Sequence record: MN122072
Source: Escherichia phage vB_EcoM_Bp10
Direction: 5' to 3' (one strand)
DNA length: 52,288 bases
The translations under genes and the position numbers were made by a program. The notes beneath the pieces were generated by a model that was not told the origin of the DNA, ran no database searches, and saw only the letters and a list, made by a program, of their open reading frames with translations. Shown here piece after piece: positions 14,497 to 45,143 of the stretch (position 1 is the first letter of the stretch; every line of letters begins with the position of its first letter).

Positions 14497-14506
14497 GGTG
14501 CGATAA

Positions 14507-14962
14507 GTGAAACAATATTCTTTCTATAATACCGACCTCATTATCGACGGTGCTCGTGTAGATGGTTTTACTTCTGGTAACTCTATCATCACTGCTCGTC
14601 GTAACGCACCTCAACACCTGCCTGTTATTGACGCGTATGGTAAGTTGGCTGTAGCTACTACGGCTGACTTGTCTGGTACTATTACTTTCCCGCTTCTGCA
14701 AACCGCAGACTGGAACGAAATCCTGTACAGCCGTGCTCAGTTAACTCAGGCAACTGGTCTATCTGGCAACAAATCTCTGTGGCAACCGCTCCAGATTCAG
14801 ATTGTTGACAAGATGGGTGATGTGCTGGTCAACGGTGTAAACGGCGCTATCTTGCAGCAACCTGCAATTCAGCGTGGTGTGTCCTTCACGTCTAACGTGT
14901 GGTCTATCTTTGTAGAACGCCTCCAGATTAAGACTGGCTCTTATCCGGAGATTGGCGTTTAA
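14507..14962 (+). CDS. tail tube protein (candidate)
   Basis: 151 aa, between sheath-like and chaperone genes. Confidence 0.55.
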   Translation: MKQYSFYNTDLIIDGARVDGFTSGNSIITARRNAPQHLPVIDAYGKLAVATTADLSGTITFPLLQTADWNEILYSRAQLTQATGLSGNKSLWQPLQIQIVDKMGDVLVNGVNGAILQQPAIQRGVSFTSNVWSIFVERLQIKTGSYPEIGV

Positions 14963-14973
14963 TTGGAGTAAGT

Positions 14974-15432
14974 ATGGCTTGTGAATTGCTTCAACGTGAA
15001 TTCACAAACTCCAAAGGTGAAACAGTGTTAGTCGTTGTTCGACAATTGTCGGCTTCGGCTGCACTGTCTCTTCACGCGGAGTTGGTAAGCAAGCTAGGCT
15101 CACGAGTATTCCCATTCATCGAAGGCAAATATAACTTCGCTGATATTATATACTTGATGCAGCAAGTGGAGCATACCGTATTCACAGAATTGTTTAAGCG
15201 TGTTATCAGCATGCACTCGTCCATAGATGGACAAGAAATCAAACCTGCATTATATGATATGCAGTTTAATGGCGAATTGATGTTGTCTTGCCATGTCTTT
15301 GCTTTCGTGCTCGAAGCAAACTTCCTTGATTTTTTCAAGCAAGGGCTCGAAATCAACGAACAGAGACGATTGGAGGCGGAGGAAGCATCCAAGCTGGCAG
15401 AGCAGAAGAATTCGAGTCCGGAGACAGTTTAG
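14974..15432 (+). CDS. tail assembly chaperone, short form
   Basis: 152 aa immediately upstream of the tape measure; contains the TTTTTTC slippery heptamer near its 3' end. Confidence 0.6.
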   Translation: MACELLQREFTNSKGETVLVVVRQLSASAALSLHAELVSKLGSRVFPFIEGKYNFADIIYLMQQVEHTVFTELFKRVISMHSSIDGQEIKPALYDMQFNGELMLSCHVFAFVLEANFLDFFKQGLEINEQRRLEAEEASKLAEQKNSSPETV

Positions 15433-15608
15433 TATCCCTGTTCCCCGACATAAAATATTTTCTGCATCGTCCTATAATCGAAGACAGTTCTCTTTGCAAG
15501 TTACATGAATTGCAAGATGGAACCTATTCGATTATGGACTTATTGCTATTCCACGACATTCTCGATTTGCGTAAGAAACTCGAACCAGTAGATGAAGACA
15601 ATGGCTAA
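15330..15608 (+). CDS. tail assembly chaperone -1 frameshift extension (long form)
   Basis: Heptamer T TTT TTC at 15330-15336 in the zero frame; the -1 frame is open from 15330 to TAA 15606-15608, ending at the tape-measure start. Confidence 0.5.
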   Translation, partial: FFQARARNQRTETIGGGGSIQAGRAEEFESGDSLVSLFPDIKYFLHRPIIEDSSLCKLHELQDGTYSIMDLLLFHDILDLRKKLEPVDEDNG

Positions 15609-18600
15609 TCAAAAAGATTTAATGAAGTTGAGCGTTAATGAGTTAATTGCATTAGGCTCTCAAAGCGGTCTGACTTTCCACGCTGGTATGAAGAAGTCGC
15701 ACATGGTTCAACAACTTAGTGCGAGCGCTGCTTCGGGATGGCTGGATACAAATGCAGAATTAATGGGTGGGTCGTTTGAAGACGACAGTTTAATTACTGA
15801 ATCTCTGGGCGACTCTTCCATGATTTCAGACGCTGCCCACATTGCACAAGTGCTTTCAAGTGCAGGCTACACAGAAGCATTTCATGCAGCAATGAATGGC
15901 CCATCACACCATGTAGAAGCTGTTCACGCATACATGGAAAGGCTTGGTGTCAACACAGACGATGTGTGGATGCACATGCCAAAGCCAAATCCGAACTTAC
16001 CGCAAGGTAGTTTCAATATGCTTAATGCCTATATGCGAGATACTTTGCAAGGGCATCAAGACATTATGCCGGAAATCCCAGGCCATTATGCTGGCGATAT
16101 TATGGCAGAATACTCCACCAACCGTGGAAACATTGCTGACTCTTATAACTACATGGCCCACATGTATGTTGACCGAGAGCAATACAGCAATCATGAACAA
16201 TACGCAAGAGACATTAGTCGAGTTGCCAAACGTCTGGAACGAGAGTTACCCTCAGCCTTTAAGGAAGTTGGGTATACATCTGCATCTAATGTAGGAAATA
16301 AATCGGCCCCACATATTTCTTACATGGACGCACTCCCTCAGATTGGCTCTCCTTCAATTGTTTCTGGCATTGCACATCCTCGTGCGCCCCTTAACGCATC
16401 TGGACTTCCTCTCGGTTCTTATGGTTCTGGCATAAATCCAGAATACTCCCTCACTGCATCACTAACTGGTGGCACAGGTTGGAGCGAACCAAGCAAGGCT
16501 TTGTATTCTTCTATTAGTGAAGCTGTTAAATCTGCTGCCAAAGTTTATTCTGGCTCCAAAGGGATGCTGAATACCCGTCACGAAGTATCTGACCGTGACA
16601 TGATTATGGATAGTGCAACACGCTACACAGATTTGGAAGAAGCCAGGAGCGGGTACGAAAACCTTCGTTCTGAACTTGCAGATGAGCCAGCTTATTCTGC
16701 ATCAAGTGTTCGAGCTATTCTCGAAAACACTTATGATAAAATGGATGCCGAACCTGTTCGCATTCCAAAGATGAAGGGAGCTTCACAGCGAGTCGATAAA
16801 GATTCACTGTCAACATCTACAGATTTTACAGCACAACTTGGGGAGGCCACCAATTGGAACTCTGCAAGAATGCGTCGTGAGGAACTTGCGATTGCAAATA
16901 TGGATAGTGCTGGATTCCGTGATGTATCAGACTATGGTACAGGACGTTCCGAGTCCCCCGTCCGATTCCATGACTTAGAACAGGGCAGCCAAGAGTGGCT
17001 GGACTTCCGTAAAAATTATGACATAACTGGTTCAACTGTTGGAACCTTCTTAGGAAACAACCCATATACCCGACCTTGGGCTGGGATGATTGATAAGATT
17101 GGCTTATCTCGTAGTAAAGAGCACAGCGATTTCACCAAGAAGATGTTCGCTGATGGTCACAGGACGGAAGAAGAAGCACGCGCTCGTGTTGGTAAGGAAT
17201 TTGGATTCGATATCAAACAAACTGGCGCTATAACAAATGACAACTATCCCGCCTTCATGTATTCTCCTGATGGTCTTATTGGGGATGATGCCATTTGGGA
17301 GCACAAGAATCCGCAAAGGGCTGGTAAGTTTGCTGACCTTCTTAAAGGCGACCATCCAGATTACATGGACCAAATTCAATTTGGCTTGCACGTTTCTGGT
17401 CGTTCTCGTGCTCTGTTCTCACAAACCATCAACGACGAAACACGTTCACAATGGATTGAGAAGGACGAAGGATGGTACGAAAGAAACCGAAATCGCCTTG
17501 ATTCTGTGCTTGGCCGTCTTGATGCTGGGCGAGAGTTTGTTAGAAACAATGCTGGGCTAGGGCGAGAAGAGCTGATTGCTGGTGCAAGAAGTGCAATGAC
17601 TGGTGATGGAATCTGGAAGGATATTCGTCAAAAGTCCACTCGTGGCTATTCTGCTGCTGCTGGTACTCCAGAAGACCCGTTTATTGGCTCACGCTCTTCG
17701 TACAACCCAGAAGCATCCTACTCTGACTACAAGCCAAACTTTGTAATGCACGAGCAAAACTTTCCAGCAACCACAGGAAACGGTGATACTGGAAATGACT
17801 CGATGGCATTGTCTGTTAAGAAAGGTATTCTTGCTGCCCAGGAAGAAAACAGGCAGAAGGGTATTAGTGCAGATGCAGACTTTGATGGCAAAGCCGACTC
17901 AATGGGCTGGAACCGTGAAAGATTTGATGCTGCCAATGGCGGTGGATATTCTGGCGGTGGCGGTGGTCGTGGCGGCAACTTCACAAGTGGTGGCAACTAC
18001 TATGATGACTACGGTCGCATGGGTGGTTCGTTAGCTGCTGGCATTGCTGGTGGCAGTATTGGTTCAGCAACCAACGGAGTTATGCAAGCATTGATGGCGA
18101 CTCCTGCTGGGCGTATGGCTGCTGTAGGCATTGGTGCTATTCAGATTGGCAATGAAGCTGCTGAATACATGAATGACTTTATCGGCAACTCGCTTGATGC
18201 TGGTGTGATAAATCCTAATGAATATTCTTCCATGTCGCAAGGCTTGGAGATGTTAGGACTCAACTCACAACAAGCGGCACGTCTGAATCAAACCACACAT
18301 AGTGCCTACAACACCATGCTTAACGGCGACCCCAGCGCCGCTGTGAACATCGTTCGCGGAAGTAGGGGATTGCTCACCATAGGTGATATTCGTGCGACAG
18401 GCGGCGACCCTGTGGCCCTAGCTCGCATCATGCAGGAAAGGGGCAAGGAGCGTGGCTGGAGTCAGGCCCGTATCGCAGGTGCTGCCGAAATGGCTGGCCT
18501 GAATGGGATGGCCCGTGCCTACGACCGCACGGAATACAGCCATGAGCAAGCTGGTTCGGTGGTAGAAGCGGGTAGAAACTCTGACTTTGCCGAAGGCATG

Positions 18601-19317
18601 GCTCAGTCAGAAATGTTGCAGGGAAGCCGCGTACGGATGCTGCCGAGCTACAACGTGCCACAAAGTGTCTTATCTAACGGTGCTTCTGTATTCGAAGCTG
18701 GTAGCGATGCACTTGACGGTGTACGAACTGGATTCAACAAAACACGAGAATTTGCTGGAAGTGTTTACGACTTTATCGCTCAAGAAGAATCTGGCGGTAG
18801 TGAATATAACAGGGATGGTTCTCGTGTAACAAGTCGTACTGGTGCTCGTGGAATAATGCAAATTCTTCCTTCAACTGCCCGTGACCCAGGATTTGGAATC
18901 AAGCCGTCTGATGGAACTCCAGAAGATGATGCACGAGTTGGTCGTGAATACTATGACGCAATGTACAAGCGTTATGGCGACCACGAAAAGGCAATGGCTG
19001 CTTACACCGATGGTCCTGGCACTGTTGACAAAGCTATTGACAAGAATGGGCTGGATTGGCTAACTGCTGTTCCTGCACAAGCACAGAATCGCGTTAAAGC
19101 ATTCCGTGAATGGTCCAAGTCTTCTCAGTCTTTGGAAGAAGGTGCTACAGGGTTTACCCGTAATGGAATGTCATACGGACAAACCCAAACTGTTGTTAAT
19201 GTTAAGATTGATGCTAAGGTCAACAACCAGACTGCTTCTGCTACAGTTGCAATTCCTGGTGGCCAGACTGTGACTCAACAAATGAACATGAACAACGGTG
19301 CGCAACAAAGAAGGTAA
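15592..19317 (+). CDS. tail tape measure protein with lytic transglycosylase (SLT) domain
   Basis: 1241 aa following the chaperone pair; Gly-rich segments; ESGGSEYNRDGSRVTSRTGARGIMQILPSTA matches the SLT catalytic Glu-Ser and IMQI motif. Confidence 0.75.
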   Translation: MKTMANQKDLMKLSVNELIALGSQSGLTFHAGMKKSHMVQQLSASAASGWLDTNAELMGGSFEDDSLITESLGDSSMISDAAHIAQVLSSAGYTEAFHAAMNGPSHHVEAVHAYMERLGVNTDDVWMHMPKPNPNLPQGSFNMLNAYMRDTLQGHQDIMPEIPGHYAGDIMAEYSTNRGNIADSYNYMAHMYVDREQYSNHEQYARDISRVAKRLERELPSAFKEVGYTSASNVGNKSAPHISYMDALPQIGSPSIVSGIAHPRAPLNASGLPLGSYGSGINPEYSLTASLTGGTGWSEPSKALYSSISEAVKSAAKVYSGSKGMLNTRHEVSDRDMIMDSATRYTDLEEARSGYENLRSELADEPAYSASSVRAILENTYDKMDAEPVRIPKMKGASQRVDKDSLSTSTDFTAQLGEATNWNSARMRREELAIANMDSAGFRDVSDYGTGRSESPVRFHDLEQGSQEWLDFRKNYDITGSTVGTFLGNNPYTRPWAGMIDKIGLSRSKEHSDFTKKMFADGHRTEEEARARVGKEFGFDIKQTGAITNDNYPAFMYSPDGLIGDDAIWEHKNPQRAGKFADLLKGDHPDYMDQIQFGLHVSGRSRALFSQTINDETRSQWIEKDEGWYERNRNRLDSVLGRLDAGREFVRNNAGLGREELIAGARSAMTGDGIWKDIRQKSTRGYSAAAGTPEDPFIGSRSSYNPEASYSDYKPNFVMHEQNFPATTGNGDTGNDSMALSVKKGILAAQEENRQKGISADADFDGKADSMGWNRERFDAANGGGYSGGGGGRGGNFTSGGNYYDDYGRMGGSLAAGIAGGSIGSATNGVMQALMATPAGRMAAVGIGAIQIGNEAAEYMNDFIGNSLDAGVINPNEYSSMSQGLEMLGLNSQQAARLNQTTHSAYNTMLNGDPSAAVNIVRGSRGLLTIGDIRATGGDPVALARIMQERGKERGWSQARIAGAAEMAGLNGMARAYDRTEYSHEQAGSVVEAGRNSDFAEGMAQSEMLQGSRVRMLPSYNVPQSVLSNGASVFEAGSDALDGVRTGFNKTREFAGSVYDFIAQEESGGSEYNRDGSRVTSRTGARGIMQILPSTARDPGFGIKPSDGTPEDDARVGREYYDAMYKRYGDHEKAMAAYTDGPGTVDKAIDKNGLDWLTAVPAQAQNRVKAFREWSKSSQSLEEGATGFTRNGMSYGQTQTVVNVKIDAKVNNQTASATVAIPGGQTVTQQMNMNNGAQQRR

Positions 19318-44580: not shown

Positions 44581-45019
44581 CAGTTGGATATTTCTAGAGG
44601 ACGGACGAGCACACTGGAATGTCTTCAATTGGTTTAGTGTGAGAAGCTATGGCAATTTGAAACGTAACTCCTTGGGGAAGTGCTCCTCTGGATTTCCCTC
44701 CACACAGGAATCTCAAGCCTGTGGCAGCGACTTCGAAGCTGCACTGCGTAACCTAAATTCACCCTAAAGTGAGTTGCCCTGAGTATGGAAATAAACTGCT
44801 CATAACCGATGGTATCTACAAAGGTAGATTAAATCAGGTTGCCTGTTGGTACTTGGGTTCAACACCTGCTTGCACTCGCAAAGTAGTGCCTCGTACCTGA
44901 GATGAAGTGAGTCGGGACCATCAATCCCACGTTATGCCAAAACATAGTAGGCGGCTCACAGATTCTACAAGCCTCGCAGTTCGGGAAAACCTGCGTTATC
45001 AAAACCCCCTTTTTTATTT

Positions 45020-45113
45020 GGACGAGTAGCTCAGAAGGTTTGCATTGTGCTCAGTCAGGTAGAGCAATCTGTTCGACAGATGTGTCGTTGGTTCGAATCC
45101 AACCTCGTCCACC
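45020..45113 (+). tRNA. tRNA-like gene, non-canonical (duplicated D-arm 5' segment, 5-nt anticodon loop)
   Basis: GGACGAG (45020-26) pairs with CTCGTCC (45104-10); T-arm GTTGG-TTCGAAT-CCAAC (45087-103); canonical D-arm GCTCAGTCAGGTAGAGC (45049-65) preceded by an extra TAGCTCAGAAGG; anticodon stem ATCTG/CAGAT has a 5-nt loop. Confidence 0.35.
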
Positions 45114-45143
45114 CACTTTAATAATAGCAATACTGGAGTCCTT

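What the first reader, a model, noticed from the sequence alone, without database searches (positions are those of the whole stretch)
15330..15608. Tail assembly chaperone -1 frameshift at T_TTT_TTC running into the tape-measure start
The heptamer lies about 100 nt before the chaperone stop and the -1 frame stays open to 15608, overlapping the tape-measure start. This is the conserved long-tailed-phage arrangement and supports the tail-gene assignments. A frame-2 ORF 15293-15508 in the ORF track is likely spurious.
Basis: partly seen in the sequence, partly recalled or inferred. Interest (0 to 1): 0.45.

Follow-up and report, generated by a model that had tools for sequence, protein, structure and literature searches.

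The report
Unannotated tail-chaperone -1 frameshift, real
The phage's tail assembly chaperone gene carries a conserved slippery T_TTT_TTC site that lets some ribosomes slip back one base and make a longer chaperone ending at the next gene's start; this is the ordinary long-tailed-phage arrangement, but public records of this phage family (Chaseviridae) leave it unannotated.

Summary
Observation confirmed; interpretation supported. The window is Escherichia phage vB_EcoP_Bp7 (Chaseviridae). ORF 14974-15432 is a tail assembly chaperone (TAC; Pfam Phage_TAC_15), lying between the tube gene and the 1241-aa protein in the tape-measure position. T_TTT_TTC (15330-15336) is in X_XXY_YYZ phase. The -1 frame is closed by TGA directly before it, then stays open for 92 codons to TAA 15606-15608, overlapping ATG 15601. 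In 45 non-identical relatives the in-phase heptamer is T_TTT_TTC (41), T_TTT_TTT (3) or G_TTT_TTC (1). The -1 frame is always open and shows coding constraint: no stops against 143 and 184 in the other frames, pN/pS 0.37. Usually it has no start codon of its own. Its C-terminal part is Pfam DUF6889. Two distant phages encode TAC+DUF6889 as one in-frame protein, colinear with the predicted 211-aa product across the junction. This T6 is the only A/T run of 6 or more inside coding sequence in the 52 kb. I found no conserved stimulatory RNA structure. The +1 ORF 15293-15508 is spurious. None of 20 related GenBank records annotates the join. No product has been detected experimentally. It is a new member of a known kind, of modest interest.

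The parts
14974..15432 (+). Short chaperone isoform (TAC-N), 0 frame, 152 aa, 17.3 kDa
15327..15329 (+). TGA stop in the -1 frame, directly upstream of the slippery site; it sets the 5' limit of the shift window
15330..15336 (+). Slippery heptamer T_TTT_TTC (0 frame GAT TTT TTC = D119 F120 F121)
   Evidence: Phase checked. Among 45 unique loci the in-phase site is T_TTT_TTC (41), T_TTT_TTT (3) or G_TTT_TTC (1). Synonymous third-position entropy is 0.0 at codons 119-121, against about 1.0-1.2 upstream. It is the only A/T run of 6 or more within coding sequence of the window. It is the only one of 22 FF dipeptides that forms a T6.
15336..15608 (+). -1 frame extension. It adds 90 aa (QARARNQ...DEDNG) after F121, then stop TAA 15606-15608. 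The full long isoform (TAC-NC) is join(14974..15336,15336..15608): 211 aa, 23.9 kDa.
   Evidence: The -1 frame is open in every relative.
15337..15432 (+). Dual-coding overlap: the 0-frame tail KQGLEINEQ... and the -1-frame Arg-rich and Gly-rich linker QARARNQRTETIGGGG...
   Evidence: Synonymous-site entropy falls to 0.18 (residues 122-135) and 0.57 (residues 136-152), against about 1.0-1.2 upstream. Both translations are conserved.
15438..15581 (+). Conserved C-terminal domain of the long isoform (LFPDIKYFLHRPIIEDSSLCKLHELQDGTYSIMDLLLFHDILDLRKKL), related to DUF6889 and phrog_4364
   Evidence: phrog_4364 E 1.5e-18. DUF6889 scores 23.4 bits here (cutoff 23.9) and is matched by 18 of 26 relatives. 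In this block: 0 stops in the -1 frame against 143 and 184 in the other frames; codon-position entropy 1.01/0.53/1.59; pN/pS 0.37.
15601..19317 (+). Downstream large virion protein in the tape-measure position. The conserved start is ATG 15601 (MANQK...), with an alternative ATG at 15592. The stop of the long chaperone isoform overlaps it as ATGGCTAA.
   Evidence: Pfam finds only YqaJ (residues 468-604) and SLT (1061-1152).
15293..15508 (+). +1-frame ORF of 71 aa: spurious
   Evidence: The +1 frame is open for only 2-91 codons in relatives. Over the conserved block, pN/pS is 2.17 and there are 184 stops in that frame.
14507..14962 (+). Tail tube gene immediately upstream (context)
   Evidence: phrog_280 E 3e-32; KPP10_Orf10 weak hit. 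Annotated as tail tube in Mangalitsa.

Best explanation
This is a programmed -1 ribosomal frameshift in the tail assembly chaperone gene of a Chaseviridae myophage.

Most ribosomes read 14974-15432 and release the 152-aa short chaperone. A minority slip back one base on T_TTT_TTC while codons TTT and TTC occupy the P and A sites. At that point both bound tRNAs are tRNA-Phe, and both can re-pair with TTT in the -1 frame. These ribosomes continue to TAA 15606-15608 and make a 211-aa long isoform: residues 1-121 of the chaperone, then an Arg/Gly-rich linker, then a DUF6889-type C-terminal domain.

By analogy with lambda gpG/gpGT, the shared N-terminal part would coat the tape-measure-position protein, and the extra domain would recruit the tail tube protein. 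Neither isoform would end up in the virion.

Shown by sequence analysis here: the site, its phase, its conservation, coding constraint on the -1 frame, the absence of an independent start codon, and the existence of natural in-frame fusions.

Inferred, not shown: that the shift happens on the ribosome, how efficient it is, and what the extra domain binds.
For: 1. Anatomy. The heptamer is in phase, a TGA closes the -1 frame directly before it, and the frame is then open for 92 codons, ending on the ATG of the next gene.

2. The gene is a TAC in the canonical position, in the order terminator, sheath, tube, TAC, large protein, baseplate hub.

3. tblastn of the 211-aa product finds 108 phage records. 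All but one of the 60 rows listed matched as two pieces.

4. In 45 non-identical loci the in-phase site is T_TTT_TTC (41), T_TTT_TTT (3) or G_TTT_TTC (1), although the residue before FF varies (D, A, S, E). The -1 frame is open for 80-117 codons in all of them.

5. The -1 frame is under protein-coding constraint. It has 0 stops, against 143 in the 0 frame and 184 in the +1 frame. Codon-position entropy runs 3rd > 1st > 2nd. pN/pS is 0.37, against 0.82 and 2.17.

6. Synonymous variation in the 0 frame collapses from the heptamer to the 0-frame stop, which is the signature of an overlapping gene.

7. 34 of 45 loci have no ATG, GTG or TTG in the -1 frame before the conserved domain. In Bp7 the first one, TTG 15510, lies inside that domain.

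8. Natural fusion proteins exist. P0073 (194 aa) carries Phage_TAC_15 and DUF6889 in a single frame. It aligns colinearly with the predicted product across the junction: ANFLDFF aligns to ENFGVFF, hhalign probability 98%, E 3e-13. In it FF is encoded TTC TTC.

9. Slippery runs are avoided elsewhere in this window. This is the only A/T run of 6 or more inside coding sequence, and 19 of 22 FF dipeptides begin with TTC (binomial P = 0.002).

10. U_UU.U_UU.C belongs to the high-efficiency heptamer class measured in E. coli (H_HH.U_UU.Y), and U_UU.C is the second-best tetramer (PMC4066793).

11. Phages with the same sheath and tube families have a conserved TAC -1 frameshift at GTTTTT (PMC12846349).
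Against: - There is no experimental detection of the 23.9-kDa product in this phage or any relative.
- I found no conserved stimulatory element. RNAalifold predicted 0 pairs. The 9-bp stem 15343-15351/15411-15419 in Bp7 shows no covariation beyond shuffles. The mean z-score of the downstream 60 nt is 0.03. There is no Shine-Dalgarno-like motif upstream in Bp7.
- A one-base insertion by RNA polymerase at the T6 run would give the identical protein, so sequence alone cannot fully separate the two routes.
- Erwinia phage Faunus lacks a canonical heptamer; it has G_TTT_TTC.
- The IMG/VR loci were retrieved with a peptide pattern that contains FF. This biases the sample towards the amino acids, though not towards the codon choice.
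Confidence: 0.86

Rival explanations
1. Transcriptional slippage. RNA polymerase (the host enzyme, or the phage's own if, as I recall, this family encodes one) occasionally adds one extra U at the T6 run. Standard translation of those mRNAs then gives the same 211-aa protein.
For: The site is a homopolymer, and the protein product would be identical. A/T runs of 6 or more are strongly avoided elsewhere in coding sequence, which would fit either kind of slippage. Three loci have T7.
Against: - From my own knowledge, bacterial and T7-type polymerases need runs of about 8-9 or more for appreciable slippage; here the run is 6, and in Faunus 5.
- If run length were what selection favoured, TTTTTTT would be preferred. 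Yet 41 of 45 loci keep C at position 7.
- What is conserved is the X_XXY_YYZ phase, including the wobble T of whichever codon precedes (GAT, GCT, AGT, TCT).
- Related families conserve only GTTTTT (PMC12846349).
- U_UU.U_UU.C is an experimentally efficient ribosomal shift site in E. coli (PMC4066793).
Confidence: 0.07
2. The -1 ORF is a separate small gene translated from its own start codon. Some GenBank records annotate it this way: gp61 of phiEcoM-GJ1, PM1_050, ORF069 of PYps3T, and HWC59_gp50 of Myduc.
For: Several records call a 37-73-aa ORF here. The protein databases hold such small ORF calls.
Against: - The annotated starts differ between genomes and cut into the conserved domain.
- 34 of 45 loci have no canonical start codon between the heptamer and the conserved block. 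In Bp7 the first start codon, TTG 15510, would remove half of the domain.
- Conservation of the -1 reading begins at the heptamer itself (FFxxR, the Gly-rich linker).
- The domain occurs fused in frame to a TAC domain in P0073.
Confidence: 0.03
3. The long isoform is made by some other non-standard route, for example ribosome re-initiation or hopping, as has been argued for T4-like chaperone genes. On this view the T-run is conserved only because FF is structurally required.
For: Vladimirov et al. 2022, as cited in PMC12846349, argue for a mechanism other than frameshifting in T4-like phages. No stimulatory element was found here.
Against: A requirement for FF does not explain the fixed synonymous choices: T at the preceding wobble position in 44 of 45 loci, and TTT as the first Phe codon in 45 of 45. 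Elsewhere in this genome 19 of 22 FF dipeptides start with TTC. The in-frame fusion P0073 keeps FF but encodes it TTC TTC.
Confidence: 0.03
4. It is a chance open frame with no function.
For: In a single genome the open frame (P about 0.03) and the heptamer (about 0.09 expected) are only mildly unlikely.
Against: The feature is conserved across at least 45 divergent loci with the signatures of purifying selection, and the -1 frame matches a Pfam/PHROG domain.
Confidence: 0.01

Closest known systems
Phage lambda gpG/gpGT, the prototype of the conserved tail assembly chaperone -1 frameshift (Levin et al. 1993 and Xu et al. 2004, from my own knowledge; summarised in PMC5009743)
   Same: - Two overlapping ORFs lie between the major tail/tube gene and the tape-measure gene.
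[quoted passage not shown]
- No strong RNA stimulator is needed.
   Different: - Lambda is a siphovirus, and its heptamer is G_GGA_AAG rather than T_TTT_TTC.
- There is no detectable sequence similarity between gpT and the DUF6889 domain.
- Efficiency and binding partners have been measured for lambda but not here.
Phage P2 E / E+E' (a contractile-tailed phage; the frameshift is on a T-run, TTTTTTG; Christie et al. 2002, from my own knowledge)
   Same: It is a myovirus chaperone pair placed after the sheath and tube genes. The shift occurs on a run of six T read by tRNA-Phe, and the extension ends near the start of the tape-measure gene.
   Different: The protein families differ: P2 E is not Phage_TAC_15. 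The seventh base is G, not C.
TAC-N/TAC-NC frameshift at the GTTTTT motif in Vandenendeviridae (Pakpunavirus, phage Adele) and Andersonviridae (PMC12846349)
   Same: - The tail module is of the same type: DUF3383-family sheath and KPP10_Orf10-family tube.
- The -1 frame is open through what is annotated as an 'intergenic' gap or a small hypothetical ORF, and is routinely left unannotated.
- The slippery motif is T-rich. Faunus has G_TTT_TTC, which contains that same GTTTTT string.
   Different: These are different virus families, and the Chaseviridae consensus is a full T_TTT_TTC heptamer. That paper does not treat the chaperone locus of Chaseviridae, which it mentions only for a tail fibre protein.
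Two-gene solution in uncultured relatives (L059 and L060; proteins P0073 and P0116)
   Same: The same DUF6889 C-terminal domain follows a chaperone domain (Phage_TAC_15 detected by Pfam in P0073 only). L060 has the same gene order of terminator, sheath, tube and TAC.
   Different: Short and long isoforms are encoded by two adjacent paralogous genes in one frame each. There is no T-run, and FF is encoded TTC TTC.

Membership tests
G/GT-type tail assembly chaperone with programmed -1 frameshift | The gene lies between the major tail/tube gene and the tape-measure gene | tested here: met
   Gene order is terminator 12535, sheath 13048, tube 14507, TAC 14974, 1241-aa protein 15601, baseplate hub 19391. 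The identity of the downstream protein as a tape measure is positional only.
G/GT-type tail assembly chaperone with programmed -1 frameshift | A second ORF in the -1 frame overlaps the 3' end of the first and lacks its own conserved start codon | tested here: met
   The overlap is 100 nt, and the first start codon in the -1 frame is TTG 15510. 34 of 45 loci have no start codon before the conserved block.
G/GT-type tail assembly chaperone with programmed -1 frameshift | An X_XXY_YYZ slippery heptamer lies in phase within the overlap | tested here: met
   T_TTT_TTC at 15330-15336 is the only in-phase heptamer in the overlap.
G/GT-type tail assembly chaperone with programmed -1 frameshift | The site and the -1 reading frame are conserved in divergent relatives | tested here: met
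   44 of 45 loci have a canonical heptamer and 45 of 45 have an open -1 frame.
G/GT-type tail assembly chaperone with programmed -1 frameshift | The first ORF has a tail assembly chaperone fold or detectable homology | tested here: met
G/GT-type tail assembly chaperone with programmed -1 frameshift | The transframe protein is actually produced at a low fixed ratio and is required for tail assembly | not testable with these tools
   No proteomic or genetic data were found for Chaseviridae.
Pfam DUF6889 (PF21829) | The score reaches the family's gathering threshold | tested here: inconclusive
   The window sequence scores 23.4 bits (22.7 in the fusion context) against a cutoff of 23.9. 18 of 26 relatives match at E<=0.01, the best at 1.9e-9. 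The homologous P0073 scores 46.8 bits, and BLASTP between the window domain and P0073 gives E 2e-11.
dnaX/IS-type stimulated -1 frameshift | An upstream Shine-Dalgarno-like element and/or a downstream hairpin or pseudoknot 5-9 nt after the heptamer | tested here: not met
   There is no consensus structure, no covariation in the Bp7 stem and mean z is 0.03. GAGG lies 13 nt upstream in about 20 of 45 loci, but Bp7 has GAAG there.
Programmed transcriptional slippage | A long homopolymer (about 8-9 nt or more) whose length, not its codon phase, is conserved | tested here: not met
   The run is T6 (T5 in Faunus). C at position 7 is kept in 41 of 45 loci, and the phase is conserved.

The most novel reading that the evidence does not exclude
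The stop codon of the long isoform is nested in the start of the tape-measure-position gene (ATGGCTAA), and this is conserved in many relatives. The 0-frame stop lies 170 nt upstream, and the intervening stretch has no obvious Shine-Dalgarno sequence. A speculative reading follows: ribosomes that have frameshifted could re-initiate on the downstream gene by termination-reinitiation. The frameshift would then set the chaperone ratio and also tie synthesis of the large tail protein to that of the long isoform. Separately, the family appears to have switched between frameshifting and a duplicated gene for making the long isoform.
Probability: 0.12. Interest if true: 0.5.

Novelty: new member of a known kind. 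Interest (0 to 1): 0.3.

Why it matters
The finding corrects an annotation gap across a whole phage family. None of the 20 related GenBank records I inspected joins the two ORFs. Several instead call a truncated 'hypothetical protein' or leave a gap of about 170 nt.

It also gives DUF6889/phrog_4364 a concrete context, as the C-terminal domain of the long tail-chaperone isoform. It supports the assignment of the tail-gene block. It further shows that relatives reach the same two-isoform outcome either by frameshifting or with two genes.

It does not change the understanding of frameshifting or of tail assembly.

Tried and rejected
- Downstream stimulatory RNA structure. The single-sequence fold has z -1.31. 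RNAalifold on 21 relatives predicted 0 pairs. An explicit test of the Bp7 stem 15343-15351/15411-15419 gave 144 of 500 shuffles as good. Local folding in each locus gave mean z 0.03. Rejected as a conserved element.
- The conserved AAGG 4-8 nt after the heptamer. It is explained by dual coding: Gly124 in the 0 frame and Arg5 in the -1 frame. It is not a Shine-Dalgarno element.
- Structure of the -1 extension. The model has pLDDT 47 and is unusable, so no fold search was run on it.
- Structure of the fusion protein.
- Sequence search of the chaperone against the PDB. 0 hits.
- NCBIfam. No family for either part of the chaperone.
- Word-indexed protein search with the extension. Only 4 small-ORF hits. 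The exhaustive profile search was needed to find the in-frame fusions.
- The metric '-1 frame open beyond the stop' across all window genes. It is uninformative, because neighbouring genes often lie in that frame.
- Promoter and terminator scan between the chaperone and the next gene. Nothing relevant.
- Literature search for a reported Chaseviridae chaperone frameshift. None found.

Full report
**Identity of the window.** The region 14500-16000 is 100% identical to Escherichia phage vB_EcoP_Bp7 (MN117721). It is 97-99% identical to phiEcoM-GJ1, ST32, flopper and other members of Carltongylesvirus, family Chaseviridae.

**The observation.**
- ORF 14974-15432 encodes 152 aa and ends at TAG 15430-15432.
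- TTTTTTC occupies 15330-15336. The 0-frame codons are GAT TTT TTC, so the heptamer is phased T_TTT_TTC.
- After a -1 slip the reading is ...ANFLDFF|QARARNQRTETIGGGG..., which runs for 90 further codons to TAA 15606-15608.
- That stop is nested in ATGGCTAA, the start (ATG 15601) of the 1241-aa downstream ORF. GenBank's Bp7 record starts that gene at ATG 15592; the phiEcoM-GJ1 RefSeq record uses the equivalent of ATG 15601.
- The -1 frame carries TGA at 15327-15329, immediately before the heptamer. The heptamer is therefore the first position at which a shifted ribosome could continue, and it is the only in-phase X_XXY_YYZ in the 100-nt overlap.

The predicted products are 17.3 kDa (152 aa) and 23.9 kDa (211 aa).

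**Chance.** Within this genome alone the case is only suggestive. In-phase heptamers occur at 38 per 13,430 codons, so about 0.09 are expected in the 33-codon overlap. From composition, 58 further open codons have P of about 0.03.

Two genome-internal observations strengthen the case.
- A/T homopolymers of 6 or more are scarce in the window: 7 T-runs and 0 A-runs, where about 15 of each would be expected. Five lie in the non-coding stretch 30271-30915. One lies just upstream of a tRNA-Leu gene. The remaining one is this site, so it is the only such run inside protein-coding sequence.
- Of 22 Phe-Phe dipeptides in the 50 longest ORFs, 19 begin with TTC even though TTT makes up 45% of Phe codons (binomial P = 0.002). 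Only this one forms a T6.

**What the gene is.**
- The 152-aa protein matches Pfam Phage_TAC_15 (67 bits, cutoff 22) and phrog_11820 'tail assembly chaperone' (E 2.5e-75).
- An AlphaFold model built on 35 homologues has pLDDT 83.
- The neighbouring genes are tail terminator, sheath (DUF3383), tube, then the chaperone, then the 1241-aa protein, then a baseplate hub.

**Comparative evidence.**
- tblastn with the 211-aa product finds 108 phage records. Hosts are Escherichia, Yersinia, Pectobacterium, Erwinia, Pantoea, Proteus, Aeromonas, Shewanella and Vibrio. In 84 of them at least 80% of the query is covered, and all but one of the 60 rows listed matched as two pieces.
- I read 20 GenBank loci and 40 IMG/VR loci. 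After removing duplicates there are 45 distinct sequences.
- The in-phase site is T_TTT_TTC in 41, T_TTT_TTT in 3 and G_TTT_TTC in 1 (Erwinia phage Faunus).
- The preceding codon varies (GAT, GCT, AGT, TCT) but keeps T at its wobble position in 44 of 45.
- The -1 frame is open for 80-117 codons in every locus. In most loci it ends within a few bases of a downstream ATG that opens a long ORF.
- The +1 frame is open for only 2-91 codons.

One caveat applies. The IMG/VR scan used a peptide pattern containing FF, which selects for the amino acids but not for the codons.

**Coding constraint on the -1 frame.** Over the conserved block downstream of the 0-frame stop (window 15438-15581) the three frames compare as follows:

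| Measure | -1 frame | 0 frame | +1 frame |
|---|---|---|---|
| Stop codons in 45 loci | 0 | 143 | 184 |
| pN/pS | 0.37 (pS near saturation at 0.84) | 0.82 | 2.17 |

- Entropy by codon position in the -1 frame is 1.01 / 0.53 / 1.59.
- In the 0-frame codon alignment of 21 relatives, third-position entropy among sequences sharing the same amino acid is about 1.0-1.2 through residues 1-118.
- It falls to 0.0 at codons 119-121 (the heptamer), 0.18 for residues 122-135 and 0.57 for residues 136-152.
- This is the suppression of synonymous change expected where two frames are both read.

**No independent initiation.** In Bp7 the first ATG, GTG or TTG in the -1 frame is TTG 15510, which lies inside the conserved domain. 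34 of 45 loci have no start codon between the heptamer and that domain, and conservation of the -1 reading begins at the heptamer itself (FFxxR, the Gly-rich linker). The small ORFs annotated in some records (gp61 of phiEcoM-GJ1, PM1_050 and others) are truncated calls of this frame.

**The extra domain and natural fusions.**
- The C-terminal 50 aa of the extension match phrog_4364 (E 1.5e-18).
- The extension also matches Pfam DUF6889. The window sequence scores 23.4 bits, just under the 23.9 cutoff; 18 of 26 relatives match, the best at E 1.9e-9.
- All 46 database homologues of the fusion are 0-frame products of about 150 aa (135-159).
- An exhaustive profile search with the extension found mostly fragments of 34-110 aa. 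It also found two proteins of 194 and 197 aa with the domain at their C-terminus.
- P0073 carries Phage_TAC_15 (43.6 bits) and DUF6889 (46.8 bits) in one frame.
- hhalign aligns the profile of predicted transframe products colinearly with P0073 across the junction: query 54-206 to target 47-184, with ANFLDFF aligned to ENFGVFF, probability 98%, E 3e-13.
- On their contigs, P0073 and P0116 each follow a separate short chaperone gene of 170-171 aa. L060 has the same terminator, sheath and tube genes upstream.
- P0073 encodes FF as TTC TTC, P0116 has no FF, and neither gene pair contains a T-run.
- These phages therefore make the two isoforms from two genes. This is independent evidence that the -1 ORF of Bp7 belongs on the end of the chaperone.

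**Mechanism.** Both slippery codons are read by tRNA-Phe, which can re-pair with UUU after a one-base backward slip.
- In E. coli, U_UU.C is the second most shift-prone tetramer.
- H_HH.U_UU.Y heptamers are among the most efficient class, and U_UU.U_UU.C is under-represented in E. coli genes (PMC4066793).
- I found no conserved stimulator. RNAalifold predicted no pairs. The 9-bp stem that Bp7 can form, starting 6 nt after the heptamer, shows no covariation. Downstream folding energies are average. Bp7 has no Shine-Dalgarno-like motif upstream.
- From my own knowledge, lambda G/GT likewise needs only the heptamer.

Transcriptional slippage would give the same protein and cannot be excluded from sequence. 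It is disfavoured for four reasons: the run is short (T6, and T5 in Faunus); C is retained at position 7 in 41 of 45 loci; the codon phase is conserved; and phages with the same tail module have a GTTTTT frameshift motif (PMC12846349).

Function is inferred from lambda (PMC5009743). The shared N-terminal domain would bind the tape-measure-position protein, and the DUF6889 domain would recruit the tube protein.

**Comparison with what is known, and novelty.** This is the conserved tail-chaperone frameshift of long-tailed phages.
- The closest functional parallels are lambda G/GT, P2 E/E+E' (also on a T-run, in a contractile-tailed phage) and the recently described TAC-N/TAC-NC frameshift of Vandenendeviridae and Andersonviridae.
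- I found no report of it for Chaseviridae.
- None of the 20 annotated records I inspected joins the ORFs.
- It is therefore a new member of a known kind: worth an annotation fix, join(14974..15336,15336..15608) with ribosomal_slippage, but not surprising.

**Limits.** No experiment supports production of the long isoform. Its efficiency is unknown. The 'tape measure' label for the downstream protein is positional only. The structure of the extra domain could not be modelled (pLDDT 47).

Noticed in passing
window 15601-19317: The 1241-aa protein in the tape-measure position matches no tape-measure family. It contains a YqaJ/lambda-exonuclease-like domain (residues 458-611), a C-terminal SLT lytic transglycosylase domain (1061-1152) and a Gly-rich stretch. 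Relatives label it variously as tail fibre, tape measure, exonuclease or T4 gp5 analogue. A nuclease-like domain inside a tail-length protein is unusual.
   Followed up: partly
window 30271-30915: This non-coding, AT-rich stretch of about 650 nt holds five of the seven T-runs of 6 or more in the window (T9, T10, T6, T6, T7). It also holds three direct repeats of about 27 nt (aatgagactcaaattgtttcaatatt and variants) and two 'gaggagggg(g)aag' motifs. It may be an origin, a regulatory region or a genome-end region.
   Followed up: no
window, whole: A/T homopolymers of 6 or more are strongly depleted: 7 T-runs and 0 A-runs, against about 15 of each expected from composition. Phe-Phe dipeptides avoid TTT as the first codon (3 of 22). 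This suggests genome-wide avoidance of slippery runs.
   Followed up: partly
L059 2493-3585; L060 2511-3594: Two uncultured phages encode the short chaperone and a long TAC+DUF6889 protein as two adjacent genes, with no T-run. This is an alternative to frameshifting for making the two isoforms.
   Followed up: partly
L061 (PP952070.1): 'Staphylococcus phage Pel53', with host given as S. hyicus, is 94% identical in DNA to this E. coli phage over the tube, chaperone and tape-measure region. That is an unexpected host for a Chaseviridae genome. It may be a host mis-assignment or contamination.
   Followed up: no
window 15601-15608 and the equivalent positions in relatives: The stop of the long isoform is nested in the next gene's start as ATGGCTAA in many relatives. 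In most loci examined the -1 stop lies within about 25 nt of a downstream ATG opening a long ORF. Translational coupling is possible.
   Followed up: no
13-17 nt upstream of the heptamer in about 20 of 45 loci (e.g. L013, L041-L049, L053-L056): A GAGG sits 13 nt before the heptamer, from the codons GAG GTN of the conserved E-[AV]-N motif. This is the spacing at which a Shine-Dalgarno-like element stimulates -1 shifting in dnaX. Bp7 and its close relatives have GAAG there instead.
   Followed up: no
P0049, P0050: Small ORF calls of the -1 domain occur in a 'Candidatus Symbiopectobacterium' metagenome-assembled genome (50-kb contig) and on a 1.2-Mb JGI contig. The latter would be odd for a family regarded as virulent.
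   Followed up: no
window 45019-45115: A single tRNA gene, tRNA-Leu(CAG), preceded by a T6 run at 45010.
   Followed up: no
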